A DNA stretch of 64,000 bases from NCBI GenBank assembly GCA_040753175.1, contig JBFMEW010000018.1:31347-95346 (forward strand). The letters run 5' to 3'. The translations under genes were made by a program, and so were the position numbers. Below, piece after piece: positions 45,904-63,878 of this stretch. The notes under the pieces are model-generated. The model worked only from the letters and a program-made list of their open reading frames with translations. It searched no databases and was not told where the DNA came from. Within the stretch, counting starts at the first letter, position 1; each line of letters opens with the position of its first letter. The DNA comes from Acidobacteriota bacterium. GTDB taxonomy: Bacteria > Acidobacteriota > Terriglobia > Versatilivoradales > Versatilivoraceae.

Positions 45904-45960
45904 AAATCTGACTAAGAAAATCAGAATAGTCAATATAACGACTCTTGACAGATCCGTCAA
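45904..45960 (-). promoter_or_regulatory. Sigma-70 promoter of cysHDN with downstream Rrf2-type operator
   Basis: Minus strand TTGACG-N17-TATATT (-35 at 45955-45960, -10 at 45932-45937), followed by ATTCTGATTTTCTTAGTCAGATTT. Confidence 0.65.
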
Positions 45961-46005
45961 GGGGTAGCATTGGACTCAGGGACAAGGAGAACCCTAAATT
46001 TGAGA

Positions 46006-46063
46006 TTGACTCCTTTTCTGGCCCTCAACTATATTGATTAAGCCGATTTGTTTAGTCATCTTG
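46006..46063 (+). promoter_or_regulatory. Sigma-70 promoter of rrf2-cysK with downstream Rrf2-type operator
   Basis: TTGACT-N18-TATATT, followed by TAAGCCGATTTGTTTAGTCATCTT. Confidence 0.6.
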
Positions 46064-46071
46064 TGGCGCTT

Positions 46072-46509: not shown

Positions 46510-46527
46510 CAATTGTTGGAGAGCTCC

Positions 46528-47478
46528 ATGGCGAAGATCGCAAACGACGTTCTTGACTTGATGGGTGACACACCACTGGTGCGGCTGAACAAAGTGACCA
46601 GTGGGGCCGTTGCAACAGTTGTAGCCAAGCTGGAGTCTCACAATCCAGCCGGCAGCGTCAAGGATCGCATCGGAATCAGCATGATCACGGAGGCCGAGCG
46701 TCTCGGAATCATTGATCGGGACACTACCATTATCGAGCCAACCAGCGGAAACACAGGAATTGCCCTGGCGTTTGTCTGTGCCGTAAAGGGGTACCACCTC
46801 ATCCTAACGATGCCGGACACGATGAGCATGGAGAGACGCACCTTGCTGCGAGCATTCGGTGCCGAATTGATTCTGACACCAGGCGTGGATGGAATGAAGG
46901 GTGCCATTCAGAAAGCGGAGGAACTGGCCAAAAAGACACCCAAGGCCTGGATTCCTCAGCAATTCAGAAACCTGGCTAATCCCAAGGTTCATCGCGAAAC
47001 GACTGCCGAGGAGATTTGGCGTGATACCGACGGACAGGTGGACATCTTTGTGGGTGGGGTCGGCACTGGGGGAACGATCACCGGAGTGGGTGAAGTGATC
47101 AAGGCCCGTAAACCGGAGTTTCGTGTCGTTGCGGTCGAGCCGAAAGACTCTCCGGTTCTTTCGGGTGGGAAACCGGGCCAACACAAGATTCAGGGGATTG
47201 GAGCGGGCTTTGTTCCTGACATCCTCAACACCACGGTGATCGATGAGATCATTCAGGTGACAAACGAAAATGCGATTCAGATGGCTCGTCGTCTGATCAA
47301 GGAGGAGGGGCTGCTCGTAGGCATTTCCTCAGGAGCGGCTGTTCATGCCGCTATCGAGGTCGCATGCCGACCCGAGAACAAGGGCAAGCTGATTGTGACT
47401 GTTCTGCCCAGCACGGGCGAACGCTACCTGAGTACGGTATTGTTTGCGGACTTGAACGCTCCTGCGGCGACTCTTTAA
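46528..47478 (+). CDS. cysK: Cysteine synthase A
   Basis: [40 protein letters not shown] and GERYLST. Confidence 0.96.
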
Positions 47479-50423: not shown

Positions 50424-50439
50424 TGGCAGACGGTTTGCA
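50424..50439 (+). promoter_or_regulatory. Sigma-54 (-24/-12) promoter of the peptide-PqqD-kinase-NTase operon
   Basis: TGGCAGACGGTTTGCA versus consensus TGGCAC-N5-TTGCW, ending about 38 nt before the ATG at 50477. Confidence 0.75.
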
Positions 50440-50476
50440 GATTAAAAGCGGCCACGAAACAACGAGGGAGATTACT

Positions 50477-50695
50477 ATGTCCGAGAATCAGAAGCAACAT
50501 GAGAAGGCGGCTCTTTCTTCTGAAAGGCGACGTTTCTTGCGGGTAACTGGAAAGGGCGTGCTTTATGCGGCTCCGGTCATCGTATCCTTCCACTCATCTG
50601 CCCTGCGAGCACAGCAGCTGAGTGGCGGTTCGTGCGCGCCGGAGTCCACCAGCTGCGTTCCTCCCAGCGACCAGCTAGAGACGATCACACAATGA
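50477..50695 (+). CDS. Putative RiPP precursor peptide (72 aa)
   Basis: GAGGGAG RBS. Sequence MSENQKQHEKAALSSERRRFLRVTGKGVLYAAPVIVSFHSSALRA-QQLSGGSCAPESTSCVPPSDQLETITQ carries a YxxPxI RRE-recognition-like motif and lies directly upstream of the PqqD gene. Confidence 0.7.
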   Translation: MSENQKQHEKAALSSERRRFLRVTGKGVLYAAPVIVSFHSSALRAQQLSGGSCAPESTSCVPPSDQLETITQ

Positions 50696-50708
50696 ATTCA
50701 CTATTTGG

Positions 50709-50978
50709 ATGGTGAAGAGTCCAAAGAAAAGACCTGATCTGACTTGTGAGTTGCTTGATGAGGAGCTGGTCATATTTGATCCTCTCCTCAACGTCACCCA
50801 CCGCCTAAATCCCACCGCATCTTTCGTCTTTGATTCCTGTGATGGAACAGCTACGCCTCGAACGATCATCAGGGAGTACGAGGAATTCTTCAACGTTGAT
50901 TCGGACACTGCCGAAAAGGATGTGAATCAGGTTTTGAGCTTGTTACAGCGCCTACGCCTGATCGATCAGTTGTCGTAG
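50709..50978 (+). CDS. PqqD-family RiPP recognition element (stand-alone RRE)
   Basis: 89 aa with LDEELVIFDP...HRLNPTASFVFDSCDG...DVNQVLSLLQRLRLI pattern. Confidence 0.88.
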   Translation: MVKSPKKRPDLTCELLDEELVIFDPLLNVTHRLNPTASFVFDSCDGTATPRTIIREYEEFFNVDSDTAEKDVNQVLSLLQRLRLIDQLS

Positions 50979-50999
50979 TCTACACTGCAAACACTGTGA

Positions 51000-51872
51000 G
51001 TGCCACCCCGGACTATGGGCAGAGCTTTGCACTTTCGCATCGGAATCATCCCCATCACTCTAGAAACAGAGTTTCAGCGTTTTCAAGATGAGTTCCTTGC
51101 ACTCTACGGTCGCTACTTAACTGAAGACGAGCAGGTGAACTCGCTTCGTTTTCAGATAGTTAGACATCGCAAGCGTCCTTGGTCCAGACAACGGTACTTG
51201 ATTCTGGGGGGCCGGGAAGGCTCTTTTGCGGCCGATACCGAAGAAGAGGTACTCCCGCACCTAGAGTGGGCCATTAATTGGCATATCGCATTGTACTGGC
51301 AGGGCTTCTATCAGATCCATGCCTCCATCATTCAATGTGGCCAGCAAGCAGTATTGTTTCCAGGCGTTCCGGGGAGTGGAAAGACCACGCTCTCAGCGGC
51401 TATGCTGGCCTGGGATGCGAGATACTACTCCGATGAAATTGCATTGATCGATCCTCGCACATTGCTTGTCCATCCCTATCCGAAGTGCCTGTGTATCAAG
51501 CAGGGTGCGGTCCCCCTTCTGAAGTCCCTATTTCCCCACCTGGCACTTGAGCCCACCTGGATCAAGAGAACCAAAGGTGCGGTTTGCTTCCTGGATCCCT
51601 GGAAACTCAGTAATGACCCGATCGCCTCTCCCCAACCAATCAGATATGTGCTGTTTCCCAGCTGGAGTCCTGGATCGGCACCAGCTCTTCAGCCCATCAC
51701 GCGTGCAGAGGCGATGTTTGACCTGACTCGCTACTCGTTCAACTTCTTGAACTATAAGAACTCGGCGACCCGATTGCTCGCAAACATCGTTCGCGAGGCG
51801 GAATGCTTCAGGATTCAAGCTGGTGATCTGAATCAAACTTGCAGACTGGTTGTGAACCTGGTCCAGCGATGA
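51000..51872 (+). CDS. HPr-kinase-related Ser/Thr kinase (HprK-related kinase A type; start may be 51015)
   Basis: IHAS...AVLFPGVPGSGKTTL Walker A, then YYSDEIALID and HPYP. Lacks the HprK N-terminal domain. Confidence 0.85.
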   Translation: MPPRTMGRALHFRIGIIPITLETEFQRFQDEFLALYGRYLTEDEQVNSLRFQIVRHRKRPWSRQRYLILGGREGSFAADTEEEVLPHLEWAINWHIALYWQGFYQIHASIIQCGQQAVLFPGVPGSGKTTLSAAMLAWDARYYSDEIALIDPRTLLVHPYPKCLCIKQGAVPLLKSLFPHLALEPTWIKRTKGAVCFLDPWKLSNDPIASPQPIRYVLFPSWSPGSAPALQPITRAEAMFDLTRYSFNFLNYKNSATRLLANIVREAECFRIQAGDLNQTCRLVVNLVQR

Positions 51873-52978
51873 GCGCTGATTTCGACAGGGTCATCACTCT
51901 GCTGTTTAGTGAATTCCCGGTTCCCCATGGTGACTTGGAGAAATTGAACTGGGAGCAAATCGCCAGAAGCTCGCTTGACCTTCGCCTCGCACCTATGCTC
52001 TACGGTGCTTTGGCGCGGAGGAAACTTCTGGCGCATTTGCCACCGGCGCCGGGATTACAGTTGCGAACAGCCTACCTTAGCAATCTGGGCCACAGCATTG
52101 ATTGCATCAGCCTAGCGTCGCAGCTGGTTAAGCTACTGTGCCAATCTGGAGTCGAGGTCATCTTGCTGAAGGGGATTGCCTACGTTCAGGAAATCTACGA
52201 CGATGTCGGCGAGCGAGTCCTCGGAGATTTGGACCTCCTGGTTCCTCCTTCAAAACTGGCAGTCGCAAGGTCTGTTTTGCTGGAGGCCGGTTTGGGGGAG
52301 GAGACTTGCCGAGATTACTCGAGGCACCATCATCTGGCTCCGTTTGTTGCGCCTGGAGGAAGGCGGGTTGAGATCCATCACCACTTGGCTCCCGTTGCTA
52401 ATCCCGTGAGGATCGAGACTGACCCGTTGTGGAATGATTCAGTTCCATCCGCGTTCCTGCCTCCAGCACGACTCCTCAACCCCCTGGATTGCGTTATTCA
52501 CAGCAGCATTCACTTGATCATCAACAGTGCGGTCTCAGGGCAAATCTACCAGCTGATCGACATCAGACGCCTCCTGTCCGTTCATTTTGGGGATCCTGAC
52601 CGCTATAACCAGCTGCTAGACCGGGCTGCAGGAACTGGAACACGGTCATATGTAGAAGAAGCCCTGAGACTTTGCGAGTCAAAACTCTTCCTGAAGATTC
52701 CTTTGCGCTTGCTTGAGCGCCCTGTACCGGTTACTTGGCGGATCTGGCGCCATTTGGCTGGGACGACAATAGCCGGACAACACCTTGGATCGGTGCCACC
52801 TCTGAAGTTCCGGCTGTATGGTGAGGTGCTTGCGCTCCTCCACTTTTTCTGGAACACTTCCTCACTCCGCTCAAGGATCAAGTACGCCATCACGAAGTCG
52901 GTAGCGCTGCTTTGTCATCTCCTGCTGGAGCGATTAAGAGCGTCCCGTCGTGGACCAAGGAAGACTGTGTCATCCTAG
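51869..52978 (+). CDS. Nucleotidyltransferase family protein (NTP_transf_5 type)
   Basis: ILLKGIAY...ERVLGDLDLLV and VEIHHHL motifs. ATGA overlap with the kinase stop codon. Confidence 0.88.
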   Translation: MSADFDRVITLLFSEFPVPHGDLEKLNWEQIARSSLDLRLAPMLYGALARRKLLAHLPPAPGLQLRTAYLSNLGHSIDCISLASQLVKLLCQSGVEVILLKGIAYVQEIYDDVGERVLGDLDLLVPPSKLAVARSVLLEAGLGEETCRDYSRHHHLAPFVAPGGRRVEIHHHLAPVANPVRIETDPLWNDSVPSAFLPPARLLNPLDCVIHSSIHLIINSAVSGQIYQLIDIRRLLSVHFGDPDRYNQLLDRAAGTGTRSYVEEALRLCESKLFLKIPLRLLERPVPVTWRIWRHLAGTTIAGQHLGSVPPLKFRLYGEVLALLHFFWNTSSLRSRIKYAITKSVALLCHLLLERLRASRRGPRKTVSS

Positions 52979-53195: not shown

Positions 53196-53528
53196 ATGGC
53201 ACAAAGCGAGAGGCGACTTCATTACCGTCTTCCCATACGCGTACCGATTTTCCTCAAGGGAATCGACAAAGCGGGCAACGAGTTCTTCGAGCTGACGCAT
53301 ACCATCGATGTGAGCGCCAGCGGGGCTTGTTTTTTGGCGAAGTCTGATGTAGTGGGGCTTGCCGACCTGTTGGTTTCGATTCCAGCACCCGTGGACATCG
53401 ATTCCGGGTCGCCCGACAACTATCAATTCAAGTTCCCGGCGAAGGTAGTGCGCGTAGAGAATGGACTGGTTGGAAGCAACCGAAAGGTATCGGTGCGATT
53501 CTCGAAGCTGTTGTATGAAAAACAGTAA
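53196..53528 (+). CDS. Stand-alone PilZ domain protein
   Basis: ERRLHYR (RxxxR) and DVSASG (DxSxxG) c-di-GMP-binding motifs. Confidence 0.87.
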   Translation: MAQSERRLHYRLPIRVPIFLKGIDKAGNEFFELTHTIDVSASGACFLAKSDVVGLADLLVSIPAPVDIDSGSPDNYQFKFPAKVVRVENGLVGSNRKVSVRFSKLLYEKQ

Positions 53529-53918
53529 CAGATGACCTTGGCCCGTGCCTTTTCGAATGCAAGGCTGCAGACGATATCCCTCTCGGCAATTTCCTGACCC
53601 TCAGGGCGATCTTCGGTCCGTCAGTTAATTCTCCAAGAGTTTCCTCTTCATTTTCCTCTTATTGGTTATTGGATGTCCCAATTATGGAATCTTGATACCC
53701 ATTCCCTAAGTCGAGCCCGCTCACACACGGCGCCGAGTTCACTGTTGGAATCCCAACGGAAAGATTCCTAATTCAATCAAAACAAGCTAGATATGATGGA
53801 AAAGCGTCCGCTCTTTCCAGCGAAGTCATAGGTGGAAGGACTTTTGCTCCTCCCGATCCCGAGCAGAGAAGTTGAATTCTCATTCCGAGCTGCCAAGTTC
53901 GATGATCCAGGAGCGAAC

Positions 53919-54980
53919 ATGGGATCGACAATTCCTCGTGCACTGATATCTGACACCAACGGAAACTCGGTTACCGATGGTCAATCCGGGCTCGACCGCA
54001 ATCAATTCGTGTTTGGGAAGAGCGAGAAAATGAAGGAGGTGGAGAGGATCATCAATCAGGTAGCTGGTGCGGACATCACGGTGCTGATTCGTGGGGAAAG
54101 CGGCACCGGCAAAGAGCTCGTAGCGCGAGAAATATTCCAACGTTCCTTTCGGCGAGACAAACCATTCGTGAAAGTCAATTGTGCCGCCATTCCGGCGGGG
54201 TTGCTGGAGAGCGAGCTGTTTGGTTACGAAAAGGGGTCCTTTACTGGAGCGATAAGTCGCAAGCCTGGAAAGTTTGAGTTTGCGAATCATGGGACCATAT
54301 TCCTTGACGAGATCAGCGAGATGCATCCGTCCCTTCAGGCAAAGTTGCTCCACGTCCTGCAAGACAACGAGTTTAGCCGATTGGGCGGCGACGAGGATGT
54401 GTCAGTCGATGTACGGGTCATTACTGCCACAAACCGCCAGATCGAAAAGGAGCTCCAGAACGGCAATTTCCGGGAGGATCTGTATTATCGAATCAATGTG
54501 GTCAGCATCCATCTTCCTCCTCTTCGCGAACGAAAGGAAGACGTGATCGACTTGTCCAATCATTTTCTCAAGAAGTATTCAGCGTTGTTTGACAAGCGTT
54601 GCACTCCTCTTTCGGACGCCACTCTTAGTTACTTTCTGACTTATGACTGGCCGGGAAATGTCAGGGAGTTGGAGAATCTCATCAAGAAGATCGTGGTGCT
54701 TCAGAACGAAGAACTTGCTGTCCGTGAACTCGGATTGTCCCCGGGACTTAGTGGTGGCGTGGAACAGAAGATGGCAGAGGGAGTAGGGGGGCGCATCTCG
54801 CTCAAAAAAGCTGGTAAACTTGCCGCGCAAGAGGCCGAGAAGAAATTGATTTTGAAGACCTTGTTGGAAACGAGATGGAATCGCAAGAAGGCTGCAGAAC
54901 TCTTGGACATCAGCTACAAGGCGCTGCTATACAAGATCAAGCAGAACGGTCTTAGCAAGAGACGGATATCAATCCCGTAA
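53919..54980 (+). CDS. Sigma-54 enhancer-binding protein lacking an N-terminal sensory domain
   Basis: GESGTGKE, ESELFGYEKGSFTGA, FLDEI, WPGNVRELEN and Fis HTH. Only about 30 aa precede the AAA+ domain. AGGAG RBS. Confidence 0.9.
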   Translation: MGSTIPRALISDTNGNSVTDGQSGLDRNQFVFGKSEKMKEVERIINQVAGADITVLIRGESGTGKELVAREIFQRSFRRDKPFVKVNCAAIPAGLLESELFGYEKGSFTGAISRKPGKFEFANHGTIFLDEISEMHPSLQAKLLHVLQDNEFSRLGGDEDVSVDVRVITATNRQIEKELQNGNFREDLYYRINVVSIHLPPLRERKEDVIDLSNHFLKKYSALFDKRCTPLSDATLSYFLTYDWPGNVRELENLIKKIVVLQNEELAVRELGLSPGLSGGVEQKMAEGVGGRISLKKAGKLAAQEAEKKLILKTLLETRWNRKKAAELLDISYKALLYKIKQNGLSKRRISIP

Positions 54981-55036
54981 CTACTGATGAGTGAACTGAC
55001 AGATCGGTCGGAGCGAATGATCGGAGTAACGAAGCC

Positions 55037-55501
55037 GTGGATGTGCTGAGTCAAGAGGATCTCTTCAAGAGCTTGCTGGAGCTCGAGTTGAAGAGAAGCT
55101 TGCGGTATCAGTATTTCACTTCTCTGTTGATGATTGAGGCCGATTCCGACTTCGCGGACGGTCCGAGTCGCGAGGGGCAGTCCTTCTTGAAGCGACTCAC
55201 CAAGTTTCTGAGGAAAGAGCTACGAGAGACCGATCTCATTGGAGTTCACAGTGAGCGGGTCCTTGCCGTTCTGTTGCTCTACTCTGACAAGAATGGCGCG
55301 CGTAATGTGGCGTCGCGCCTGACTTCCTGGGCCTCGAACTTTGTCGCTTCTCAGCCAAATGGGGGCCGTTCCCATATTCGTCTTGGAGGCGCTTGCTTCC
55401 CGTCGCATGCCACGAATCTGGAGGGGCTCTTCGAAAAGACTTGCGAAATGTTAAACCGCGCAAACTTCGAGCCCGATGGCTGTGTTCAGATCTTGGACTG
55501 A
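55037..55501 (+). CDS. Degenerate GGDEF-fold protein (possible c-di-GMP receptor)
   Basis: LELELKRSLRY..SLLMIEAD, RETD I-site, and GGDEF replaced by a HSERVL segment. GGACFP strand. Confidence 0.72.
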   Translation: MDVLSQEDLFKSLLELELKRSLRYQYFTSLLMIEADSDFADGPSREGQSFLKRLTKFLRKELRETDLIGVHSERVLAVLLLYSDKNGARNVASRLTSWASNFVASQPNGGRSHIRLGGACFPSHATNLEGLFEKTCEMLNRANFEPDGCVQILD

Positions 55502-55533
55502 TGAGTTGTTCATGGGAGGGAGCCTCTGTAGAC

Positions 55534-56178
55534 ATGACCCGAAACCGCAATTCTCAGAAATGGCTATCGCCCATCGTTTGCTGGCTCCTCTTGGTGGTAT
55601 CGCTGATCCCATGCTTTGCAGCCGAAGACGATGCTAATAAACCGGCATCCTCCAAGGAGGAAAGCAAGACGGACGGCCCTCAGCCTGGTCAGGTTGGTGA
55701 GGACTTCGTGATCGGAGCGGGGGATGTTTTAAACATCTTCGTGTGGAAAGAACCGGAGGTGTCCAAGTCCGTTCCGGTACGCCCCGACGGAAAGGTTTCT
55801 TTGCCGCTTATCAACGACGTCCAGGCCAGTGGCCTCACGGCGATGCAGCTCAAAAAAGTTCTTGAAGAAAAGTTGAGCAAATACCTCGCTGAACCGAATG
55901 TCACCGTCACGGTCGAGGCCGTCAACAGCCAGAAAGTGACGATCATGGGAGAGGTGAATAACGCTGGCCCGCGACCCTTGGCAGGCCCAACCCGTGTGAT
56001 GGACATTCTCGCTACCGCGGGTTTCAGTCCTTTTGCAAAGACATCTAAGATCTACATCTTGCGAAATGAGAATGGCAAACAGGAGCGGTTCGACTTTAAT
56101 TATAAGGATTACATCAAGGGCAAGAATGCATCACAAAACATTCTGCTGAAAAGCGGGGACACCATCGTTGTTCCCTAG
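55534..56178 (+). CDS. Polysaccharide export protein (Wza/OPX family)
   Basis: FVIGAGDVLNIFVWKEPEVS..VPVRPDGKVSLPLI PES motif and LKSGDTIVVP. Confidence 0.93.
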   Translation: MTRNRNSQKWLSPIVCWLLLVVSLIPCFAAEDDANKPASSKEESKTDGPQPGQVGEDFVIGAGDVLNIFVWKEPEVSKSVPVRPDGKVSLPLINDVQASGLTAMQLKKVLEEKLSKYLAEPNVTVTVEAVNSQKVTIMGEVNNAGPRPLAGPTRVMDILATAGFSPFAKTSKIYILRNENGKQERFDFNYKDYIKGKNASQNILLKSGDTIVVP

Positions 56179-56194
56179 TCTTTGTTAAATATAG

Positions 56195-57595
56195 GTGGCT
56201 CTCATGAGACTCTCGATGCCTAACAAGCGGGTTCTGGTTGCTGTGGCTCTCTTAGGATACTTGGGACTTAGCCAAGCGTTTGCGCAGCCTGACAGTCAGG
56301 AGCCTCACTCCAGTACGTCTGACAACACGCAACTTCCATCGGCAAAAGCACTGGGCGACGTCTTCTTCAAGTCTCGAGACTCGTTCATCTTTTCTGTGGG
56401 AATTCAGCAATCTGCGACGAACAACCTGTACTTTTCGCCGGTGAGTTTTGTCTCTCAGGGAACCGATGACAATCGCTACTTACCGTTTACCACTCTGACT
56501 TCCCGGGTGGCGTTCCAGAGACAGCTGCCCAGGGCCAGTGTAGGACTTGACTACCAGGCTGCGGGCATCCTCTTTCGAGATCGCGATTCGAGTAGCTTTC
56601 TCACCCAACATGGTGGGATTGATCTTGCTTATCGCGCCAGCCCGCGGTCCACGTTCGCCGTGGGAGACCGAATCTCGGTGACCCCAGCTCCTGGCAGGTT
56701 CTATCAAGGAGACTCGATTTTGTCTCCCTCTTCAGCAGCAATCCTGCCCAACAGTACGCTTTTTGTCAGCCTTAATCGAACTATCAGCAACGCGGCGTAT
56801 GCCTCCTATTCCTACGATCTCAGTCGCCGCAGTCTGATAAGTTTTGGAGCTCAAAATACCATCACTCGTTTCCAGCAGCAGGGTCTGAGCGAGATGAATC
56901 AATCGGGCGGCCATATGGCTTATTCCTACCGCGTGGCCGAGAAGACGACGCTGACGCTGGGCTACCATTTCGCCTACTATGATTTTGCTAATCCTCGTTC
57001 AGCGGATTTCCTTCGTCCGTCAGGCACCGTTGTGCGCAGCCATTGGGCCTACGTAGGTATTACTCAGCGGCTCACCTCCTCGGTCAGCGCTTTTCTCCAG
57101 GCTGGACCGAACTACTTGGTGGGAAATGCGATTGGGGAATTGGGGACATTCTCCGGACGGCCCGGCGTGAGGGTCAGCGTCAACGGCGGGTTGATCTTCA
57201 GTGAGGCGATTGCGTTGGATCCGAGAACCTTCTTCTCGATTTCTGCGGGGCAAACCATTTCAGATGGCTACGGCCTGGGTGCGGTAACCGAGACGCAGCA
57301 AGCTGGGGTCTCGCTCGGGAGACGCCTCACCAAGACACTGACCGGCTCTGTCAATGGGAGCTACGCTCGTAATCGATTCCTGCTCAACACTGACGAGCGG
57401 GGTAAACCGATCACGACCAACGGGGTATCTGGTGGAGCGAATCTGAGCCTCAACCTGACTGAACGAGTGAACCTCTTTGCGAATCACACGTACTTTAGGC
57501 AGCTTTCGACTGGCTTCTACTCTGTAATCCCAGGCCGCGCCTCGGGAAACACGTTCACAGTCGGATTGAACTACAGCTTGGCCAAGTTCTTTTAG
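56195..57595 (+). CDS. Putative outer-membrane beta-barrel protein of EPS locus
   Basis: Signal peptide, alternating aromatic-rich beta strands, and C-terminal Phe. Located between the wza-like and chain-length genes. Confidence 0.72.
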   Translation: MALMRLSMPNKRVLVAVALLGYLGLSQAFAQPDSQEPHSSTSDNTQLPSAKALGDVFFKSRDSFIFSVGIQQSATNNLYFSPVSFVSQGTDDNRYLPFTTLTSRVAFQRQLPRASVGLDYQAAGILFRDRDSSSFLTQHGGIDLAYRASPRSTFAVGDRISVTPAPGRFYQGDSILSPSSAAILPNSTLFVSLNRTISNAAYASYSYDLSRRSLISFGAQNTITRFQQQGLSEMNQSGGHMAYSYRVAEKTTLTLGYHFAYYDFANPRSADFLRPSGTVVRSHWAYVGITQRLTSSVSAFLQAGPNYLVGNAIGELGTFSGRPGVRVSVNGGLIFSEAIALDPRTFFSISAGQTISDGYGLGAVTETQQAGVSLGRRLTKTLTGSVNGSYARNRFLLNTDERGKPITTNGVSGGANLSLNLTERVNLFANHTYFRQLSTGFYSVIPGRASGNTFTVGLNYSLAKFF

Positions 57596-57618
57596 ATTGT
57601 CGGAGACCCTTTCTTCCT

Positions 57619-59157
57619 ATGAAGAACATACAAAACCTTCAGCTCGAAGACTATTTCGACATCCTGAAGCGGCGGATCCTGTGGATTCTAGTTCCCGGGG
57701 TTATCATCTGGTTCATCACATTCCTATTCGCTCAGAGACTCCCGAACGTATATGTCTCGGAAACACTCATCCTGGTGGAGCCCCCCAAAGTTCCAACCGA
57801 CTATGTCAGACCGGCTTCTGTCGGAACGATCCAGAGTCGACTTTCCACTATTACCCAACAGATCATGAGTCGGACCCGACTGGAGAAAATCATCCTGGAC
57901 AACAATCTTTACGCTGAAAAGCGCCATTCCGCGTCGATGGAAGAGGTCGTGGAGAAGATGCGCAGCGATATCAGCCTCAACGTGACTAAGACGGATGCCT
58001 TCGCTCTGTCTTACCGTGCCTATGATCCGATTCTTGCCCAGAAAGTCACCAGTCAGATTGCCTCGTTATACATAGAGGAAAACCTCAAGGTCCGATCAGA
58101 GCAAACAGAGGGCGTCAGTGAATTCTTGGAATCTCAGCTGAAGGAAACGGAGTCTAAGCTTCGGGAGCAGGAAGACCGCATGCGCGAATTCAAAAGCCGT
58201 TTCATGGGCGGTCTTCCCGAACAACAGGCGGCGAATCTAGCCACCCTGAATCGGTTGCAGCTGCAGTTGCAAGCCAGCCAGGAGTCGATCTCCAGACTAC
58301 AGGATCAAAGGGCGCAACAAAAAAGGCTGATGACCGAGTATGAGAGTTTTGCGCAGCTTGGGCTTGGCGTTGAAGTGTCCGTGGCTACTTCCGCTGTACC
58401 GTCGGTGGCCGACCCTGCATCAAGGGAACTGGAAAAAAAGAAGGCAGACCGGGACGCTGCACTTTTGCGTTACACGAAAAACCACCCGGATGTAAGGAAG
58501 CTGGAAAGCGAGATCCGGATCCTCGAAGAGAGGATATCAAAGCAGCACCAGCCGGTCGACACAGCCCTCACCGACGGAATTGAGATGGACTCGGCTGGTC
58601 AGAAAATGGATCCGAACCTCTTGGAGATGCGCACACAACTACAGTCTCTAGATTTCCAGATCCAGCAGGCCAAGAAGGATCAGGACAGGATCCGCAACGA
58701 GATGGCTATCTACCAGGCTCGTGTGGACTCAGTCCCGCGACTGGAGCAACTGCAGAAAGAGATCAGCCGCGACTATGAGATGACTCAACAAAACTACCGA
58801 AGCCTCTTGGCCAAGAAAAACGAGGCAGCGATGGCGGCCAATCTGGAAAAGAGACAGAAGGGTGAGCAGTTTCGGATTCTGGATCCCGCCAGCCTGCCGG
58901 AGAAACCCTCTGAACCTAACCGGTTGAGGCTCAACCTGGCAGGTTTGGCTGCTGGTTTGGCATTCGGTCTTCTGCTCTCTTTGGTGTTGGAGTTAAGGGA
59001 TGAGTCAGTTCGAAGCGAGCGGGAAGTCGCGCAACTCACCCAGCTGCCGGTCTTAGTATCGATTCCTCTCATTGGAGAGCGACAAAGCAAAGAGACTTCC
59101 CTTTTCAGGTCTCCTTTTAGGGTCCTATCCAGCCTTTGGAGGGTTTCACCCAAGTGA
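57619..59157 (+). CDS. Polysaccharide co-polymerase / chain-length determinant (GumC/Wzc N-terminal type)
   Basis: Two TMs flanking a coiled coil, YTKNHPDV, and GEQFRILDPASLPEKPSEPNR. Confidence 0.92.
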   Translation: MKNIQNLQLEDYFDILKRRILWILVPGVIIWFITFLFAQRLPNVYVSETLILVEPPKVPTDYVRPASVGTIQSRLSTITQQIMSRTRLEKIILDNNLYAEKRHSASMEEVVEKMRSDISLNVTKTDAFALSYRAYDPILAQKVTSQIASLYIEENLKVRSEQTEGVSEFLESQLKETESKLREQEDRMREFKSRFMGGLPEQQAANLATLNRLQLQLQASQESISRLQDQRAQQKRLMTEYESFAQLGLGVEVSVATSAVPSVADPASRELEKKKADRDAALLRYTKNHPDVRKLESEIRILEERISKQHQPVDTALTDGIEMDSAGQKMDPNLLEMRTQLQSLDFQIQQAKKDQDRIRNEMAIYQARVDSVPRLEQLQKEISRDYEMTQQNYRSLLAKKNEAAMAANLEKRQKGEQFRILDPASLPEKPSEPNRLRLNLAGLAAGLAFGLLLSLVLELRDESVRSEREVAQLTQLPVLVSIPLIGERQSKETSLFRSPFRVLSSLWRVSPK

Positions 59158-59173
59158 AACCGGATGAAACACC

Positions 59174-60166
59174 ATGTATGAAGCATTCTTTCAACTTAAG
59201 GAAAAGCCTTTCAATCTGACGCCGGATCCGCGATTCATCTACTTCACAGAAAGGCACTGTGAAGCTTTGGCGAACTTGGTTTACGGAATTCGAGAGCGGA
59301 AGGGATTTTTGGTGCTCTCGGGAGAGGTTGGTACGGGGAAGACCACCCTCGTCAACGCATTACTGGACACGCTCGACCGCACAGGAGTGCTTTCCGCCTT
59401 CATCTTTAACCCTATTTTGACGAGTTCAGAGTTCTTTGAGTACCTCCTGGCCGACTTGAACCTCAAGGCGGATGTCCGGTCGAAGAGCCAATGCTTGATC
59501 AAGCTGAATGCACTATTACTGGAAAGGTATCGGGCTGGCCAGGTAACTGTACTCATTGTCGATGAAGCTCAGAACCTCAGTGCAGAGATTCTCGAGGAGA
59601 TTCGTCTTCTGACGAACCTCGAGACGGCTACCGAGAAGCTCCTTCAGATCGTCTTGGTGGGACAACCAGAGTTGAGTCTAAAACTCAACTCCCCTGAGCT
59701 CCGGCAGCTCAAGCAACGAGTTAGCCTAAGGTGCCACTTAGAGCCTCTCACTCTGTCTGAAACAAAAGAGTATATCAAGACGCGTTTAGAGATTGCTGGG
59801 CTTCCCAGTCAGCAGGTGTTTTCCGATCCCTGTATCACGGAAATTCACCGCCGCACAGGAGGGATTCCTCGGCTTATCAATACCCTTTGCGACAATTCCA
59901 TGATCACCGCTTACGCTTGTGACACGCTGACCGTCAGCCAGGAGATCATCGAGGAAGTGGCTGAGGACTTGGAGATTTTTGCGGACCACCGCGACCCCTC
60001 GGGTTTTACGAGAGGAACTCGATTCTCCGGCATGCCGCGAAACGGCCGGAACGAGGACAAGCGTGCGAGTAGCGATTTGGTGGGCGCCAGCGACGACGAT
60101 AAAGAGTCTAAGTCATTTGACCTTTTTGTTCAGTTTGTAGACAAGCTGAGAGAGCGAAATCACTAG
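59174..60166 (+). CDS. ExeA-like AAA ATPase (PEP-CTERM/XrtA EPS-locus type)
   Basis: MYEAFFQLKEKPFNLTPDP, GEVGTGKTT, VDEAQNL, LVGQPEL and GGIPRLIN. Confidence 0.9.
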   Translation: MYEAFFQLKEKPFNLTPDPRFIYFTERHCEALANLVYGIRERKGFLVLSGEVGTGKTTLVNALLDTLDRTGVLSAFIFNPILTSSEFFEYLLADLNLKADVRSKSQCLIKLNALLLERYRAGQVTVLIVDEAQNLSAEILEEIRLLTNLETATEKLLQIVLVGQPELSLKLNSPELRQLKQRVSLRCHLEPLTLSETKEYIKTRLEIAGLPSQQVFSDPCITEIHRRTGGIPRLINTLCDNSMITAYACDTLTVSQEIIEEVAEDLEIFADHRDPSGFTRGTRFSGMPRNGRNEDKRASSDLVGASDDDKESKSFDLFVQFVDKLRERNH

Positions 60167-60179
60167 GAGCCTGTAGATT

Positions 60180-61082
60180 ATGAGCAAGATTCATCAGGCC
60201 ATTCGTCGCGCGGAGAGGGAAGGGAAGCGGAATCCGCCTGAGTCGGAAAGACGACGACCGGCCTCAACTGATCCCGTTGGAACGGAACGCGGAGGCGGCA
60301 GCAAATCCATGGCTGCTGTGGTTGAAGCCGCGCTCGATGCCGAGCGTTGGCCCTCAGCAGCAGGCCCTGTGCTTCCTGAGAAAAGACAGTCTGTCGCGTT
60401 TCACCCAGATCCACGAGTGGTGGCAATTAGCGCTCCCCGATGCTACGCCAGCGAACAATATCGAGCACTGAAGGCGCGCCTGTACCAGCTTCGTGAGAAG
60501 CGGTTGCTTAAAACGATCCTCGTCACCAGCGCGGCACCCGGGGAAGGGAAGACCCTTAGTTCGGTCAACCTGGCATTGACCATCGCACAGGAGATCGAAG
60601 AAACGGTGCTCATGGTGGATGCCGACCTTCGAAAGCCAAACGTTCACAAAACCCTCGGTGTCCCAACTACCCAGGGATTGGCTGATCTTCTGAACAGCGG
60701 CTCGCGATTGGATTCCGTTCTCCACTCAACGACGATGACGAATCTATTCCTCGTTCAAGCAGGGACGGTTCCCGAGAATCCAGCCGAGTTGCTGAATTCC
60801 CAGAGCATGCGCGATTTTCTGTCGGCAGCCTCGGAACGATTCGACTGGGTGATTCTTGACTCTCCGCCTTACTTGCCCCTAGCTGATGCGGAACTGATGT
60901 CAACGATGGTAGACGGTATTTTATTTGTCGTCAGAGCTTCGCACACGCCGGCAAGTTTGGTCTCAAAATCGGCTGAAAGCCTGCGAGGCAAGAACCTGCT
61001 GGGAGTTATTTTCAACGGGAATCAGGGGCATCAGCAGTCGCAGTACTTCTACAACTACTCCTACAGTGATACGTCCGTGTAG
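60180..61082 (+). CDS. CpsD/CapB family bacterial tyrosine kinase
   Basis: VTSAAPGEGKT, VDADLRKP, ILDSPP and a C-terminal Tyr cluster YFYNYSY. Confidence 0.93.
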   Translation: MSKIHQAIRRAEREGKRNPPESERRRPASTDPVGTERGGGSKSMAAVVEAALDAERWPSAAGPVLPEKRQSVAFHPDPRVVAISAPRCYASEQYRALKARLYQLREKRLLKTILVTSAAPGEGKTLSSVNLALTIAQEIEETVLMVDADLRKPNVHKTLGVPTTQGLADLLNSGSRLDSVLHSTTMTNLFLVQAGTVPENPAELLNSQSMRDFLSAASERFDWVILDSPPYLPLADAELMSTMVDGILFVVRASHTPASLVSKSAESLRGKNLLGVIFNGNQGHQQSQYFYNYSYSDTSV

Positions 61083-61132
61083 GGAAATGAAGTCAAGAGT
61101 TTGTCTTGATTATGTGACGGGTTGCACGGCCA

Positions 61133-62527
61133 ATGCTGAGAATTTTCAACCACTATCTTTCTCCTCTGACACTTTTTCTCGTCCTTTCGGAGAACCTTCT
61201 AATCCTGGGCACGCTGTACCTATCCACACTCATCAAGCTTGGGGATATTGAACCTTCCTCTATCGCAGCACCGGCGTTTTTCTCAAGAGCACTGACGTTG
61301 GCGTTGCTCTGTCAACTGTGCCTCTATTTCCACGACTTGTATGACCTTAAGGTGGTGCGGGACAGGCGGGAACTACATGTCCGCCTCCTCCAGGCGCTGG
61401 GTGTGTGCTCGATGGTGGTGGCCATACTTTACTGGATTTTCCCTTCCTTGTTGCTCGGACAGGGTGTGTTCCTCCTTGCCGTTCTGCTTCTTCTGGTGCT
61501 GGTGAGTATCTGGCGTGTTGCCTTCAACTGGATTAGCCACCGCCGTGAATTCAAACGACCCATCCTGATCTTGGGGACGGGAAGTCTGGCGAAGAAGCTT
61601 TGCTCGGAGGTGCTTGACCGGCCCGATCTCGGGATGAGGATCTTGGGGTTTGTTTCGGACGACGTTAATCTAGTTGGCACGTCGCTCATCAACCCCAGGG
61701 TACTCGGTCACTACTCCGACTTGGCGAGAATTGTCGAGAGCGAGCGCTCCGTTCAGATCGTTGTCGCAATGGAGGAGAGCCGGGGCCGTCTACCCGTGAA
61801 AGAATTGCTCGATCTCAAAATGCGTGGGGCTTCGATTGAAGAGGGAACTGCCCTCTATGAAAGAATCACGGGAAAAATCGCGGTGGAAAATCTTCGACCA
61901 AGCTGGTTGATCTTCTCCGAGGGGTTCCGGAAATCCCGATGGGTGTTGGGACTGAAACGAGTTTCGGGAATCCTCTTGTCCCTAGTAGGGCTGATTGTGA
62001 CTGCACCGATAATGCTTGTCATTGCCGTCCTGATCAAAACCGAATCTCGTGGTCCCGTGCTTTTCAAGCAGAACCGAGTCGGCGAGAACGGCAAGATCTT
62101 TCGCCTTCTCAAATTTCGATCCATGTGGGAAGACGCAGAGGCCCTCACGGGACCCGTTTGGGCGTGCGCCGATGACCGAAGAGTGACGCGCGTCGGCCGC
62201 TGGATCAGAAGGTTGCGAATGGATGAGCTGCCACAGTTCATCAATGTGTTACGAGGCGACATGAGCTTTGTTGGACCTCGGCCCGAGCGCCCCCATTTTG
62301 TGGAGCAGCTTAGCGAACAGATTCCCTTCTACAACCAGCGGCACACAGTCAAGCCCGGCATTACCGGATGGGCACAAATCAATTTCCACTATGGCATGTC
62401 CATGGAAGATACGCTGGAGAAGCTCCAGTACGATTTGTTCTACATCAAAAACATGTCCTTTACGCTCGATCTTTCGATCATCTTTCAGACGATTAAGATT
62501 GTGCTTTCGGGACGAGGGGCGCACTAG
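61133..62527 (+). CDS. Priming polyprenyl-phosphate glycosylphosphotransferase (WcaJ-like, PEP-CTERM-associated type)
   Basis: N-terminal TMs, KFRSM, DELPQFINVLRGDMSFVGPRPERP, KPGITGWAQ and YDLFYIKN. Confidence 0.94.
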   Translation: MLRIFNHYLSPLTLFLVLSENLLILGTLYLSTLIKLGDIEPSSIAAPAFFSRALTLALLCQLCLYFHDLYDLKVVRDRRELHVRLLQALGVCSMVVAILYWIFPSLLLGQGVFLLAVLLLLVLVSIWRVAFNWISHRREFKRPILILGTGSLAKKLCSEVLDRPDLGMRILGFVSDDVNLVGTSLINPRVLGHYSDLARIVESERSVQIVVAMEESRGRLPVKELLDLKMRGASIEEGTALYERITGKIAVENLRPSWLIFSEGFRKSRWVLGLKRVSGILLSLVGLIVTAPIMLVIAVLIKTESRGPVLFKQNRVGENGKIFRLLKFRSMWEDAEALTGPVWACADDRRVTRVGRWIRRLRMDELPQFINVLRGDMSFVGPRPERPHFVEQLSEQIPFYNQRHTVKPGITGWAQINFHYGMSMEDTLEKLQYDLFYIKNMSFTLDLSIIFQTIKIVLSGRGAH

Positions 62528-62573
62528 TTAACTATCCGTTCCATCTGGAACTGGCAGCACGGAAAGGACGCTG

Positions 62574-63878
62574 ATGCACATTGCGGTGGTCGGTACCGGA
62601 TACGTAGGACTGGTAACGGGCGCTGGGCTCGCAGATTTTGGCTTAAATGTTACTTGCGTGGACGTCGAGATTGCCAAGATCGAAGCACTCAGGGAAGGCA
62701 GAATCCCCATCTATGAGATCGGATTGGAGGAGATTGTTCGACGTAACGTGACGAACAAGAGGCTTCAATTTAGCGCCGATGTTGAAGAGGGAATTAGACA
62801 ATCCTTGGTTGTCTTCATTGCTGTTGGCACGCCAGAGGGTACGGATGGCCATCCGGATCTCTCCCAGCTACAGGCCGTTGTTTCTACCATCGCGCGGGTC
62901 ATGGACGACTACAAAGTAATCGTCACCAAGAGCACGGTGCCGGTGGGAACCGGCAAGCAGATTCGTCGCTGGATCGAAGCCGAGCAACCTCAGCCGGTCA
63001 AGTTCGACATCGTCTCCAACCCCGAGTTCCTGCGAGAGGGCTCCGCGATTGAGGATTTCATGCGACCCAACCGGGTGGTGATCGGTGCAGAGAGTGAACA
63101 AGCAGCCGCCATCATCAAGGATATCTATCGGCCCCTTTACCTGATTGAAACTCCCTTCGTGGTCACGGATTTGGAAACGGCCGAGCTGATCAAATATGCT
63201 TCCAATGCCTTCTTGGCCACCAAGATTTCGTTCATCAACGAAATGGCAAATCTGTGTGAGAGGGTTGGAGCAGATATACACGACGTGGCTCGTGGAATGG
63301 GTTTGGACAAAAGGATCGGTCCAAAGTTCCTCCATGCCGGCCCTGGGTTTGGGGGATCGTGCTTCCCGAAGGACCTAGCAGCTCTCTGCAGCATCGGAAG
63401 CCGATTCGAAACCCCGATGCGGATTGCAGAGGCAGCTCTCGAGGTGAACCGAATTCAGCGAATACAAGTGGCCAACAAGATTGAGGTGGGTATGGAAGGG
63501 CTAGCGGGAAAGACACTCGGAGTTTGGGGACTGGCCTTTAAGCCCAACACTGATGATGTTCGGGAATCCCCAGCCATTGACATTTGTCAAAAGCTCCTGG
63601 AGAAGAACGCGCTCCTCCGAGCCTACGACCCAGTGGCCAACCAGAACGCCAGTCGCGCACTGCGCGACTCACGCGTCACATATTGCGACGATGCCTATGA
63701 CGCGGCGACCGGAGTGGATGGACTTCTGGTAGCAACTGAATGGAATGAGTTTAGAAACGTGGATTTGGAAAGGGTTAAGTCTTTGATGAAATTGCCGATA
63801 CTGTTTGACGTGCGCAATATCTTTGATCCTGCCAGACTCCGCATGCTTGGTTTCCGCTACTACGGGACAGGGCGCTAG
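62574..63878 (+). CDS. ugd: UDP-glucose 6-dehydrogenase
   Basis: GTGYVG, SNPEFLREG, GFGGSCFPKD and GLAFKPNTDD. Confidence 0.95.
   Translation: MHIAVVGTGYVGLVTGAGLADFGLNVTCVDVEIAKIEALREGRIPIYEIGLEEIVRRNVTNKRLQFSADVEEGIRQSLVVFIAVGTPEGTDGHPDLSQLQAVVSTIARVMDDYKVIVTKSTVPVGTGKQIRRWIEAEQPQPVKFDIVSNPEFLREGSAIEDFMRPNRVVIGAESEQAAAIIKDIYRPLYLIETPFVVTDLETAELIKYASNAFLATKISFINEMANLCERVGADIHDVARGMGLDKRIGPKFLHAGPGFGGSCFPKDLAALCSIGSRFETPMRIAEAALEVNRIQRIQVANKIEVGMEGLAGKTLGVWGLAFKPNTDDVRESPAIDICQKLLEKNALLRAYDPVANQNASRALRDSRVTYCDDAYDAATGVDGLLVATEWNEFRNVDLERVKSLMKLPILFDVRNIFDPARLRMLGFRYYGTGR

What the first reader, a model, noticed from the sequence alone, without database searches (positions are those of the whole stretch)
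50424..52978. Candidate new RiPP-type system: precursor + RRE + HPr-kinase-like kinase + nucleotidyltransferase, with no lasso cyclase, coupled to an EPS locus
Seen: four tightly packed co-directional genes (gaps of 13 and 21 nt, then an ATGA overlap) behind a near-consensus sigma-54 promoter. They encode a 72-aa peptide, a stand-alone PqqD/RRE, a P-loop HprK-like kinase and an NTP_transf_5 nucleotidyltransferase. The cassette has no asparagine-synthetase-like cyclase, transglutaminase-like leader peptidase, radical SAM enzyme or transporter. Known (from memory): the PqqD + HprK-related kinase + NTase trio was catalogued as the 'HPr-rel-A' cassette of unknown role and substrate. Homologous kinase/NTase pairs tailor lasso peptides: Ser phosphorylation in paeninodin, and phosphorylation then hexose addition in pseudomycoidin. 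Inference: the small ORF is the missing substrate, and the product is a non-lasso Ser/Thr-phosphorylated and then nucleotidylated or phosphoglycosylated peptide. It may use the NDP-sugars of the adjacent EPS locus and act as a primer, anchor or signal for the polysaccharide.
Basis: partly seen in the sequence, partly recalled or inferred. Interest (0 to 1): 0.9.

Follow-up and report, generated by a model that had tools for sequence, protein, structure and literature searches.

The report
Phosphopeptide cassette with Tat-like leader
Four packed genes in an acidobacterial genome look like a Gram-negative version of the recently described linear polyphosphorylated peptide pathway, and they point to the long-missing peptide substrate of a catalogued kinase cassette.

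Summary
A 72-aa ORF, a PqqD/RRE, an HprK_rel_A-like kinase and an NTP_transf_5 nucleotidyltransferase lie at 50477-52978. The spacings are as stated, and the cassette sits beside an XrtA/PEP-CTERM polysaccharide locus.

The small ORF is a real, conserved gene. Related peptides sit beside, or fused to, PqqD in 22 other loci from Acidobacteriota and Phycisphaerae. They share RRxFLK, then phi-xx-P-x-(I/V/L), then Ala 16-17 residues later, then a variable Ser/Thr-rich tail.

A profile of the leader re-finds kinase loci genome-wide. A Tyr in the leader co-varies with an Asp in PqqD. A complex model scores 0.61 against 0.02 for the best control.

The system type is no longer new. Popov et al. 2026 (PMC13381572) described linear polyphosphorylated peptides (LPPs) in Bacillota with the same RRE, kinase and NTase set, also in polysaccharide loci.

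This is a variant of it. It lies in other phyla and has no SipW-like leader peptidase or exporter. Its leader resembles a Tat signal with an AxA-type site in the LPP register.

Chemistry, export and any polysaccharide role remain untested.

The parts
50424..50439 (+). Sigma-54-type promoter-like motif, TGGCAG-N4-TTTGCA with GG and GC 10 nt apart
   Evidence: It is the only exact match in the window. The chance expectation is 0.34, and 30 of 100 shuffles give at least one. It was not found at the homologous place in the other loci.
50464..50470 (+). Shine-Dalgarno-like GAGGGAG, 6 nt before the ATG
   Evidence: Read from the sequence.
50477..50695 (+). Precursor peptide gene (72 aa plus stop)
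   Evidence: ORF. An orthologue with 42% identity sits at the same place in G019. The leader is under purifying selection: of 31 leader codons, 13 differ synonymously and 13 non-synonymously.
50525..50542 (+). Twin-arginine-like motif RRRFLR (residues 17-22)
   Evidence: A basic pair followed by x-phi-phi is present in 23 of 23 family peptides. It lies outside the confident PqqD interface.
50564..50590 (+). RRE-binding motif YAAPVIVSF (residues 30-38)
   Evidence: Pro is invariant in 23 of 23 peptides. The predicted interface covers peptide residues Y30-S41. The Tyr co-varies with PqqD D71.
50612..50692 (+). Predicted core (residues 46-72, QQLSGGSC...). The proposed cut is after A45 and the candidate acceptor is S49
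   Evidence: Ala or Gly lies exactly 16 residues after the phi residue in 17 of 23 peptides, and Ala at 17 in the other 6. Ser/Thr lies in core positions 1-4 in 20 of 23. This is the Y-16 register of LppA (PMC13381572, sections 8 and 11). The cut site and the acceptor are inferred.
50709..50978 (+). Stand-alone PqqD-type RRE (89 aa)
   Evidence: PF05402 at 46.9 bits. The closest solved relatives of its profile are lasso B1 proteins TbiB1 (E 1.7e-10) and TfuB1 (E 1.5e-8), then LppB 9X8Z (E 2.1e-5).
51000..51872 (+). HprK-like kinase (290 aa). Walker A GVPGSGKTT is at 51363-51389 and SDE at residues 144-146
   Evidence: TIGR04352 at 170.9 bits. G125, G127, K128, T130, S144, D145 and E146 are invariant in 8 kinases. 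The kinase profile's best match among solved structures is HPr kinase 1KO7, weakly, at E 0.0011.
51869..52978 (+). NTP_transf_5 nucleotidyltransferase (369 aa). The GDLD motif is at 52223-52234
   Evidence: PF14907 at 126.4 bits. The motif was read from the sequence. No solved relative was found by sequence.
53196..55501 (+). Neighbouring regulators: PilZ protein, sigma-54 activator without a receiver domain, and a degenerate GGDEF protein
   Evidence: PF07238, PF00158 with HTH_8, and PF00990. Membership of the system is not shown.
55393..63878 (+). Neighbouring XrtA/PEP-CTERM-type polysaccharide genes: export protein, outer-membrane protein, chain-length determinant, ATPase, Tyr kinase, priming glycosyltransferase, UDP-glucose dehydrogenase
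   Evidence: TIGR03027, TIGR03007, TIGR03015 and TIGR03018 are best hits below their cut-offs. TIGR03013 scores 488.6 bits, above its cut-off. This is adjacency only.

Best explanation
The cassette is a leader-guided peptide-modification pathway of the linear polyphosphorylated peptide (LPP) kind.

Proposed steps, all inferred and with my odds where I give them:
1. The 72-aa product is the precursor.
2. Its leader motif YAAPVIVSF (residues 30-38) docks as an added beta-strand on the stand-alone PqqD/RRE. Tyr30 pairs with Asp71 of PqqD.
3. The RRE presents the junction region to the HprK-like kinase. The kinase puts one or more phosphates on a Ser/Thr at the start of the core. The candidate is Ser49, in QQLS.
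4. The NTP_transf_5 enzyme then decorates the phosphate with a hexose or a nucleotide.
5. No peptidase or exporter is encoded. The leader carries RRRFLR, a short hydrophobic stretch, a basic residue and an Ala 16 residues after the Tyr. I therefore propose that the leader doubles as a Tat-type signal. The modified peptide would leave through the housekeeping Tat system and be cut after Ala45 by signal peptidase I. I put this step at about 35-40%.
6. A role in the neighbouring PEP-CTERM/polysaccharide matrix is possible but unshown.
For: The gene is real:
- In the leader, G000 and G019 differ synonymously at 13 codons and non-synonymously at 13.
- In the Phycisphaerae pair, from the RR motif onward, the counts are 18 synonymous and 3 non-synonymous.

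The family:
- I collected 23 peptides sharing the RR motif, phi-xx-P and Ala at +16 or +17. All but one orphan (G234) are beside or fused to PqqD.
- All six above-cut-off TIGR04352 loci in 401 Acidobacteriota genomes have such a peptide.

Unbiased test: the leader profile A3, searched over 401 whole genomes, gave 31 hits outside its training loci. Eight of these lie within about 2 kb of an HprK-like kinase hit. Chance would give about 0.1 (my estimate).

Fusions: PqqD, leader and core form one ORF in G247, G430, G169, G237 and G087.

Co-variation: 8 of 8 systems with a Tyr leader have Asp at the PqqD column of D71. Only 1 of 14 systems without Tyr does. That column aligns with the Asp of LppB in 'EEDIE'. 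The paper gives LppB D70 as the hydrogen-bond partner of Y-16 (PMC13381572, section 8).

Complex model: ipSAE 0.61 (runs 0.61, 0.60, 0.63) against 0.02 for the best control. The mark was reached by 58 of 80 solved complexes and 2 of 110 mismatched pairs. The runs agree in at least 69% of contacts and the partner pLDDT is 55. The interface joins PqqD residues 28-37 and 71-82 to peptide Y30-S41.

Chemistry by analogy:
- LppK polyphosphorylates core Ser3.
- A signal-peptidase-I-type enzyme cuts 16 residues after the Tyr.
- LPP clusters sit in capsule loci (PMC13381572, sections 6, 7, 11, 12).
- PsmK and PsmN add phosphate and then hexose (PMC6993621, passages).

Tat likeness:
- Tat-signal models were the only families hit repeatedly by the 23 peptides: TIGR02811 by 9 of 23 and TIGR01409 by 8 of 23, at E up to 1.
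- The leader profile also hits N-termini of long ORFs, for example L112.
- TatC is present in 22 of 22 other genomes that carry such a peptide, and in the window's own genome with TatA/B.
- No SipW-type peptidase is above cut-off in 11 of 11 genomes.
Against: - No modification, binding, cleavage or export was measured.
- The complex pass may reflect the model's memory of solved RRE-leader complexes (5V1V, 6JX3, 9X8Z).
- The window's own peptide hits no Tat model at E up to 1.
- In the five fused proteins the RR motif lies about 100 or more residues inside the protein, which is not where a Tat signal normally sits.
- TatC presence is weak evidence, because 11 of 14 control genomes have it too.
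- The kinase and the PqqD score below the curated cut-offs of TIGR04352 and TIGR04353.
- The AlphaFold2 model of a natural fusion did not dock the leader on the RRE; pLDDT is below 50 from residue 96.
- Six PqqD-plus-kinase loci have no leader of this type.
- LppN was inactive in the published heterologous system, so the NTase chemistry is uncertain even in the reference family (PMC13381572, section 7).
- The peptides are related, so the counts overstate independence.
Confidence: 0.65

Rival explanations
1. The chemistry is the same (RRE-guided phosphorylation of the peptide), but the RRxFLK element is not an export signal. It would be a second recognition element for the kinase or the NTase. 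The product would stay in the cell, for example as a regulator, or leave and be trimmed by unlinked, unknown proteins.
For: - In five fused proteins the RR motif is internal.
- The window's own peptide is not recognised by the Tat models.
Against: - The motif matches the Tat consensus in 23 of 23 peptides. It is followed by a short uncharged stretch, in most of them a basic residue, and a small residue at -1.
- Only Tat-signal models hit the family repeatedly.
- The published relative is cut by a signal-peptidase-type enzyme in the same register (PMC13381572, section 11).
Confidence: 0.2
2. The small ORF encodes an ordinary Tat-exported small protein that merely neighbours the enzymes. PqqD, the kinase and the NTase would act on something else, such as another peptide, a lipid carrier or the polysaccharide.
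For: - NTP_transf_5 and HprK-like genes also occur without PqqD in a second polysaccharide-like locus of the same genome, C3:379090-389489.
- There is an orphan peptide in G234 with no enzymes within 10 kb.
Against: - Synteny is conserved across two phyla.
- PqqD and the peptide are fused in five proteins.
- Tyr and Asp co-vary.
- The complex model passes.
- PqqD domains are peptide-binding modules in every characterised case I read (PMC13381572, section 8).
Confidence: 0.1
3. It is a cryptic lasso peptide whose protease and cyclase are encoded elsewhere in the genome.
For: - The RRE is most like lasso B1 proteins.
- The leader has YxxPxI.
- One divergent Asn-synthase-like gene, C18:126801-128642, has as its best hit a macrolactam cyclase family.
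Against: - No PF13471 match is above cut-off in a genome that is 98% complete; the best is 21.9 bits against a cut-off of 26.
- That Asn-synthase-like gene scores 68 bits against a cut-off of 300. The other five are XrtA-type amidotransferases or asparagine synthases, all below the lasso cut-offs.
- The leader has no Thr at -2.
- Cassettes without lasso genes recur in many genomes.
Confidence: 0.03

Closest known systems
Linear polyphosphorylated peptides (LPP) of Bacillota: LppA, LppB, LppK, LppN, LppS, LppD (Popov et al., Nat Commun 2026, PMC13381572; sections 6, 7, 8, 11, 12 and 35 read)
   Same: [quoted passage not shown]
- The precursor has a conserved leader and a variable tail.
- The leader has YxxPx(V/I), with Tyr 16 residues before the junction.
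- A Ser lies at the start of the core.
- The cluster sits in a polysaccharide locus.
   Different: - The phyla differ. This cassette is in Acidobacteriota and Phycisphaerae, whereas the authors call LPPs restricted to Bacillota.
- No archaeal-type signal peptidase was found in 11 of 11 genomes.
- No MsbA-like pump is nearby.
- The leader carries RRxFLK and an Ala at -1, in place of HQxIxFET.
- The RRE profile is closer to TbiB1 and TfuB1 than to LppB.
Phosphorylated lasso peptides: paeninodin and pseudomycoidin (PMC6993621, passages read; the paeninodin work is known to me only as cited there)
   Same: The HprK-type kinase and PsmN-type NTase pair. A YxxP-type leader read by a PqqD-like B1 protein.
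   Different: No B2 peptidase and no cyclase. In the lasso peptides the acceptor is the C-terminal Ser, whereas this peptide ends in Gln.
NCBIfam 'HPr-rel-A system' (TIGR04352 HprK-related kinase A, TIGR04353 PqqD family peptide chaperone)
   Same: The PqqD, kinase and NTase synteny. Both models are the best or near-best hits. The canonical loci carry the same kind of peptide.
   Different: The window's proteins score below both curated cut-offs: 170.9 against 200 bits and 27.6 against 35. They form a sister subfamily with G019 and two Phycisphaerae MAGs, with kinase identities of 49% and 37-38%.
Tat signal peptides and their cytoplasmic signal-binding chaperones such as TorD and DmsD (recalled; no call)
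   Same: RRxFLK, a weakly hydrophobic stretch, a basic residue before an AxA-type site, and a small cytoplasmic protein predicted to bind the signal region.
   Different: PqqD is unrelated to TorD-type chaperones. The predicted contact is with the phi-xx-P stretch, not with the RR motif. Export is untested.

Membership tests
LPP RiPP family (PMC13381572) | Precursor with a conserved leader carrying YxxPx(V/L/I) and a variable C-terminal core | tested here: met
   The leader has YAAPVI at residues 30-35. The leader is conserved and the tails vary across 23 peptides.
LPP RiPP family (PMC13381572) | Discrete RRE (PqqD-like) gene | tested here: met
   PF05402 at 46.9 bits. The PqqD profile hits LppB 9X8Z at E 2.1e-5, behind TbiB1 at 1.7e-10.
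LPP RiPP family (PMC13381572) | HprK-like kinase and an uncharacterised NTP transferase | tested here: met
   TIGR04352 at E 3e-50 and PF14907 at E 1.8e-36. Direct comparison with LppK and LppN was not possible because their sequences were not on hand.
LPP RiPP family (PMC13381572) | Archaeal-type (SipW-like) signal peptidase I as leader peptidase. The family was discovered through this gene. | tested here: not met
   TIGR02228 has no match at E up to 0.01 in the window's own genome. No match is above cut-off in 10 other cassette genomes, and none of the weak hits is near a cassette.
LPP RiPP family (PMC13381572) | MsbA-like export pump in the cluster | tested here: not met
   In 41588-63878 the only ABC genes are an ABC_tran protein and a BPD_transp_1 permease, which is an importer type.
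LPP RiPP family (PMC13381572) | Polyphosphorylation of a Ser at the start of the core | not testable with these tools
   Only the position is seen: Ser/Thr lies in core positions 1-4 in 20 of 23 peptides.
HPr-rel-A system (TIGR04352/TIGR04353) | Kinase and PqqD score above the curated equivalog cut-offs | tested here: not met
   170.9 against 200 bits, and 27.6 against 35 bits.
HPr-rel-A system (TIGR04352/TIGR04353) | PqqD, kinase and nucleotidyltransferase as neighbours | tested here: met
   The same order is seen in the canonical loci.
Lasso peptide | B2 (Transglut_core3) leader peptidase and Asn-synthase-like cyclase | tested here: not met
   The best PF13471 match is 21.9 bits against a cut-off of 26. 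NF033535 scores at most 273.8 against 525, and NF033561 at most 77.4 against 300.
Tat signal peptide | Twin-arginine motif, h-region, and an AxA-type site with a basic residue before it | tested here: inconclusive
   The motif is seen by eye in 23 of 23 peptides. TIGR01409 hits 8 of 23 and TIGR02811 hits 9 of 23 at E up to 1. The window's own peptide hits neither.
Tat signal peptide | Tat machinery in the genome, and Tat-dependent export | tested here: inconclusive
   TatC and three TatA/B genes are present. Export cannot be tested here.

The most novel reading that the evidence does not exclude
The leader is bifunctional. Its phi-xx-P half is held by the RRE while the kinase and NTase build a phospho-(glyco/nucleotidyl) group on the first residues of the core. 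Its RRxFLK half then hands the finished peptide to the housekeeping Tat translocon, and signal peptidase I cuts at the Ala in the LPP register.

This would be a RiPP pathway that borrows general secretion for both export and leader removal, with the RRE acting like a Tat proofreading chaperone. The secreted anionic peptide would work in the PEP-CTERM/exosortase polysaccharide matrix. That would explain why such cassettes sit beside polysaccharide loci in both Bacillota and Acidobacteriota.
Probability: 0.3. Interest if true: 0.8.

Novelty: new variant of a known kind. Interest (0 to 1): 0.62.

Why it matters
- It gives a testable substrate to a catalogued three-gene system (TIGR04352/TIGR04353) whose curated name speaks of a 'peptide chaperone'. 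None of the cassette peptides I scanned matched a dedicated peptide family in NCBIfam.
- It extends the phosphorylated linear RiPPs beyond Bacillota, where their discoverers place them.
- If the Tat reading holds, it shows a new way for a RiPP pathway to do without its own protease and exporter.
- The recurring neighbourhood with capsule or PEP-CTERM/exosortase loci in distant phyla strengthens the unproven idea that these peptides act in the extracellular matrix or biofilm.

Tried and rejected
- A word-index search of the 72-aa peptide found no homologue.
- The AlphaFold2 model of a natural PqqD-leader-core fusion (G247, four-row alignment) has mean pLDDT 55. The leader and core are below 50 and modelled as helix, so it neither supports nor opposes docking.
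- The protein atlas gave as nearest named clusters small proteins with Tat signals, at 0.86-0.90. The best hits were unnamed clusters at 0.94-0.95. These are leads only.
- The sigma-54 motif with two mismatches gave 10 hits against 10.5 expected, so it is not informative. There was no terminator-like site after the NTase.
- Sequencing runs: no RNA holder was listed, and there was one DNA run with a small share of the words.
- Searches of solved structures gave only weak HPr kinase hits for the kinase profile (E 0.0011) and nothing for the NTase.
- Literature searches found no paper with 'HprK-related kinase', and none that joins exosortase or PEP-CTERM with PqqD or HPr kinase. RRE-Finder (PMC7470986) and PMC12710340 have no occurrence of HPr, kinase, nucleotidyltransferase, PEP-CTERM or exosortase in their main texts. 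Supplements were not opened. The supplementary data of PMC13381572 (lists of clusters and taxa) could bear on the claim that LPPs are confined to Bacillota.
- Pfam scan of cassette neighbours: the ORFs were picked as the longest non-overlapping ones of at least 150 aa. Of the 75 picked, 69 were scanned. I dropped six ORFs that ran off a locus end. Only the 25 commonest families were shown, so rarer ones, such as ABC exporters, could be hidden.


Full report
**What is there.**
- The peptide runs from 50477 to 50695 (72 aa), with a Shine-Dalgarno-like GAGGGAG 6 nt before the ATG.
- PqqD is at 50709-50978, the kinase at 51000-51872 and the NTase at 51869-52978.
- The gaps are 13 nt and 21 nt, followed by an ATGA overlap.

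PqqD passes Pfam's threshold (PF05402, 46.9 bits). The NTase passes too (PF14907, 126.4 bits). The kinase has TIGR04352 'HprK-related kinase A' as its best hit (E 3e-50, 170.9 bits), but that is below the 200-bit cut-off. PqqD likewise reaches only 27.6 of the 35 bits needed for TIGR04353. The peptide matches no family.

The sigma-54-like motif at 50424-50439 is the only exact match in the window. Such a match is not rare by itself: 0.34 are expected, and 30 of 100 shuffles give at least one. It was not found at the same place in the other cassette loci then held.

**Surroundings.** Upstream lie sulfur-assimilation and ABC import genes. Downstream come a PilZ protein, a sigma-54 activator without a receiver domain and a degenerate GGDEF protein. 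After them comes a run of XrtA/PEP-CTERM-type polysaccharide genes.

The genome (8.5 Mb, 189 contigs, 98% complete) belongs to the Acidobacteria. I infer this from the record title of its relative G019.

**No lasso machinery.**
- No Transglut_core3 match is above cut-off in the whole genome.
- Of six Asn-synthase homologues, five are XrtA-type amidotransferases or asparagine synthases.
- The sixth is a divergent protein whose best hit, a macrolactam cyclase family, reaches 68 of 300 bits.
- All six are far below the lasso cyclase cut-offs.
- No paralogue of the peptide exists in the genome.

**Is the small ORF a gene, and is it tied to the enzymes?**

The closest relative, G019 (same family, another genus), has the same four genes in the same order. 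Its peptide is 42% identical. Two Phycisphaerae MAGs have them too.

All six loci above the TIGR04352 cut-off among 401 Acidobacteriota genomes have a small ORF of the same design next to PqqD. So do two more distant loci in the window's own family.

A 36-position profile of the leader (A3, 11 sequences) was then run over the 401 whole genomes in six frames. It gave 31 hits outside its training loci. Eight of them lie within about 2 kb of an HprK-like kinase hit. I estimate about 0.1 by chance. Most of the other hits are N-termini of long ORFs. The one I read, L112, looks like an ordinary Tat-exported enzyme.

In five genomes PqqD, leader and core are one polypeptide.

Codon comparison shows selection on the protein. 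The leader of G000 against G019 has 13 synonymous and 13 non-synonymous differences in 31 codons. The Phycisphaerae pair has 18 synonymous against 3 non-synonymous from the RR motif onward.

**Anatomy of the family (23 peptides, not independent).**
- All have a basic pair in an RRxFLK-like motif, followed 9-13 residues later by phi-xx-P-x-(I/V/L).
- The Pro is invariant. The phi residue is Tyr in 9 of 23.
- Ala or Gly lies exactly 16 residues after phi in 17 peptides. In the other six, Ala lies at 17.
- A Ser or Thr lies within the next four residues in 20 of 23.
- The tails are variable, 8-76 residues long, and rich in Gly, Ser, Pro or Cys.

**Peptide-RRE contact.** The PqqD profile is most like the lasso B1 proteins TbiB1 and TfuB1, then LppB.

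A complex model of PqqD with the leader scored 0.61 against 0.02 for the best of three controls. The mark was reached by 58 of 80 solved complexes and 2 of 110 mismatched pairs. Run agreement is at least 69% and the partner pLDDT is 55. The contacts join the PqqD beta-strand (residues 28-37) and the last helix (71-82) to peptide Y30-S41. The RR motif is not in the confident interface. Similar complexes are solved, so the pass may be partly memory.

Independent of that, the eight systems whose leader has Tyr all have Asp at the PqqD column of D71. Only one of 14 systems without Tyr does. This column aligns with the Asp of LppB, which the published structure shows hydrogen-bonded to Tyr-16.

**What is known.** Popov et al. 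(Nat Commun, May 2026, PMC13381572; I read sections 6, 7, 8, 11, 12 and 35) describe linear polyphosphorylated peptides (LPPs) in Bacillota.
- The precursor carries YxxPxVLxHQxIxFETxxS.
- The cluster encodes a discrete RRE (LppB), an HprK-like kinase (LppK), an NTP transferase (LppN), an archaeal-type signal peptidase (LppS) and an MsbA-like pump.
- LppK puts up to four phosphates on core Ser3.
- LppS cuts after Thr-1, 16 residues after the Tyr, and needs the RRE to do so.
- LppN did nothing in their heterologous host.
- The clusters sit in capsule loci. The role is unknown, and the authors call the family restricted to Bacillota.

For pseudomycoidin, PsmK phosphorylates the C-terminal Ser and PsmN is needed for hexoses on the phosphate (PMC6993621, passages).

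The window's cassette shares the RRE, kinase and NTase set, the YxxP leader, the 16-residue register, the Ser near the junction and the polysaccharide neighbourhood. It lacks the two genes that complete the published pathway. No SipW-type peptidase is above cut-off in 11 of 11 cassette genomes, and none of the weak hits is near a cassette. No MsbA-like pump is nearby.

**The Tat idea.** The feature that sets this clade apart is RRxFLK, a short uncharged stretch, usually a basic residue, then Ala at -1. That is the make-up of a Tat signal with a signal peptidase I site.
- Tat-signal models were the only families hit repeatedly by the 23 peptides, by 8 and 9 of them. The window's own peptide hits neither.
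- TatC is present in all 22 other genomes that carry such a peptide, and in the window's own genome. This is weak evidence.
- The fused proteins place the motif inside the protein, which speaks against a classical N-terminal signal.

I therefore hold the Tat and signal peptidase step at about 35-40%. The core claim, a precursor read by the RRE and modified by the kinase, I hold at about 65%.

**Polysaccharide link.** Among 69 neighbouring ORFs of 11 cassettes, three carry PEP-CTERM, two are exosortases and two are EpsI-like.

The sole exosortase gene lies about 1-4 kb from the cassette in G274, G017 and G003. In G000 and G019 it is on another contig. G319, G299, G149 and G266 have none. In G019 the cassette is followed by chemotaxis-like genes, judging from the translations.

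The link is thus recurrent but not obligatory, and no mechanism is shown.

**Verdict.** What remains new:
- the range, in Acidobacteriota and Phycisphaerae;
- the identification of the peptide of the 'HPr-rel-A' cassette;
- the Tat-like leader, together with the absence of a dedicated peptidase and pump.

Noticed in passing
window 53196-55501: A PilZ protein, a sigma-54 activator with no receiver domain (the AAA+ domain starts near residue 60) and a degenerate GGDEF protein sit between the cassette and the polysaccharide genes. This looks like a c-di-GMP and sigma-54 control module.
   Followed up: partly
window 53833-53848: A second sigma-54-like motif, TGGAAGGACTTTTGCT, has correct GG/GC spacing and two mismatches. 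It lies at the listed start of the activator ORF, so the true start may be further downstream.
   Followed up: no
G000:C3:379090-389489 (L130): This is a second polysaccharide-like locus in the same genome. It has a weak HprK-like protein (TIGR04355 at 26 bits, TIGR04352 at 25 bits), several large ORFs that I took by eye to be membrane proteins or glycosyltransferases (not scanned), and a second NTP_transf_5 gene. No PqqD match is there.
   Followed up: partly
G000:C18:126801-128642 (L009): A divergent Asn-synthase-like protein (613 aa) has no match to the glutaminase part. Its best, weak, hit is the albusnodin/ikarugamycin macrolactam cyclase family (68 bits, cut-off 300). It lies about 31 kb beyond the window, on the same contig (C18), near other XrtA-type amidotransferase genes.
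   Followed up: partly
L125:1201-1692, L119:1399-1929, L080:2038-2562, L083:656-1174, L106:829-1644: These are natural fusions of PqqD, leader and core in one ORF. Four are from one genus and have six-Cys cores next to the kinase. The one in G087 has no kinase within 12 kb.
   Followed up: partly
L133:9446-9850 (G234:C1): An orphan precursor-like ORF matches the leader profile at E 5e-11 but has no PqqD, kinase or NTase within about 10 kb.
   Followed up: yes
L062, L063, L064, L067, L068, L081: Six loci have PqqD and an HprK-like kinase, some with an NTase, but no leader of this type within 1.5 kb. They may use another precursor family.
   Followed up: no
window 42837-47478: A sulfate-assimilation cluster lies here: a CysN-like GTPase, two PAPS_reduct proteins, an Rrf2 regulator and a PLP-dependent cysteine-synthase-like gene. 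ABC import genes follow it.
   Followed up: no
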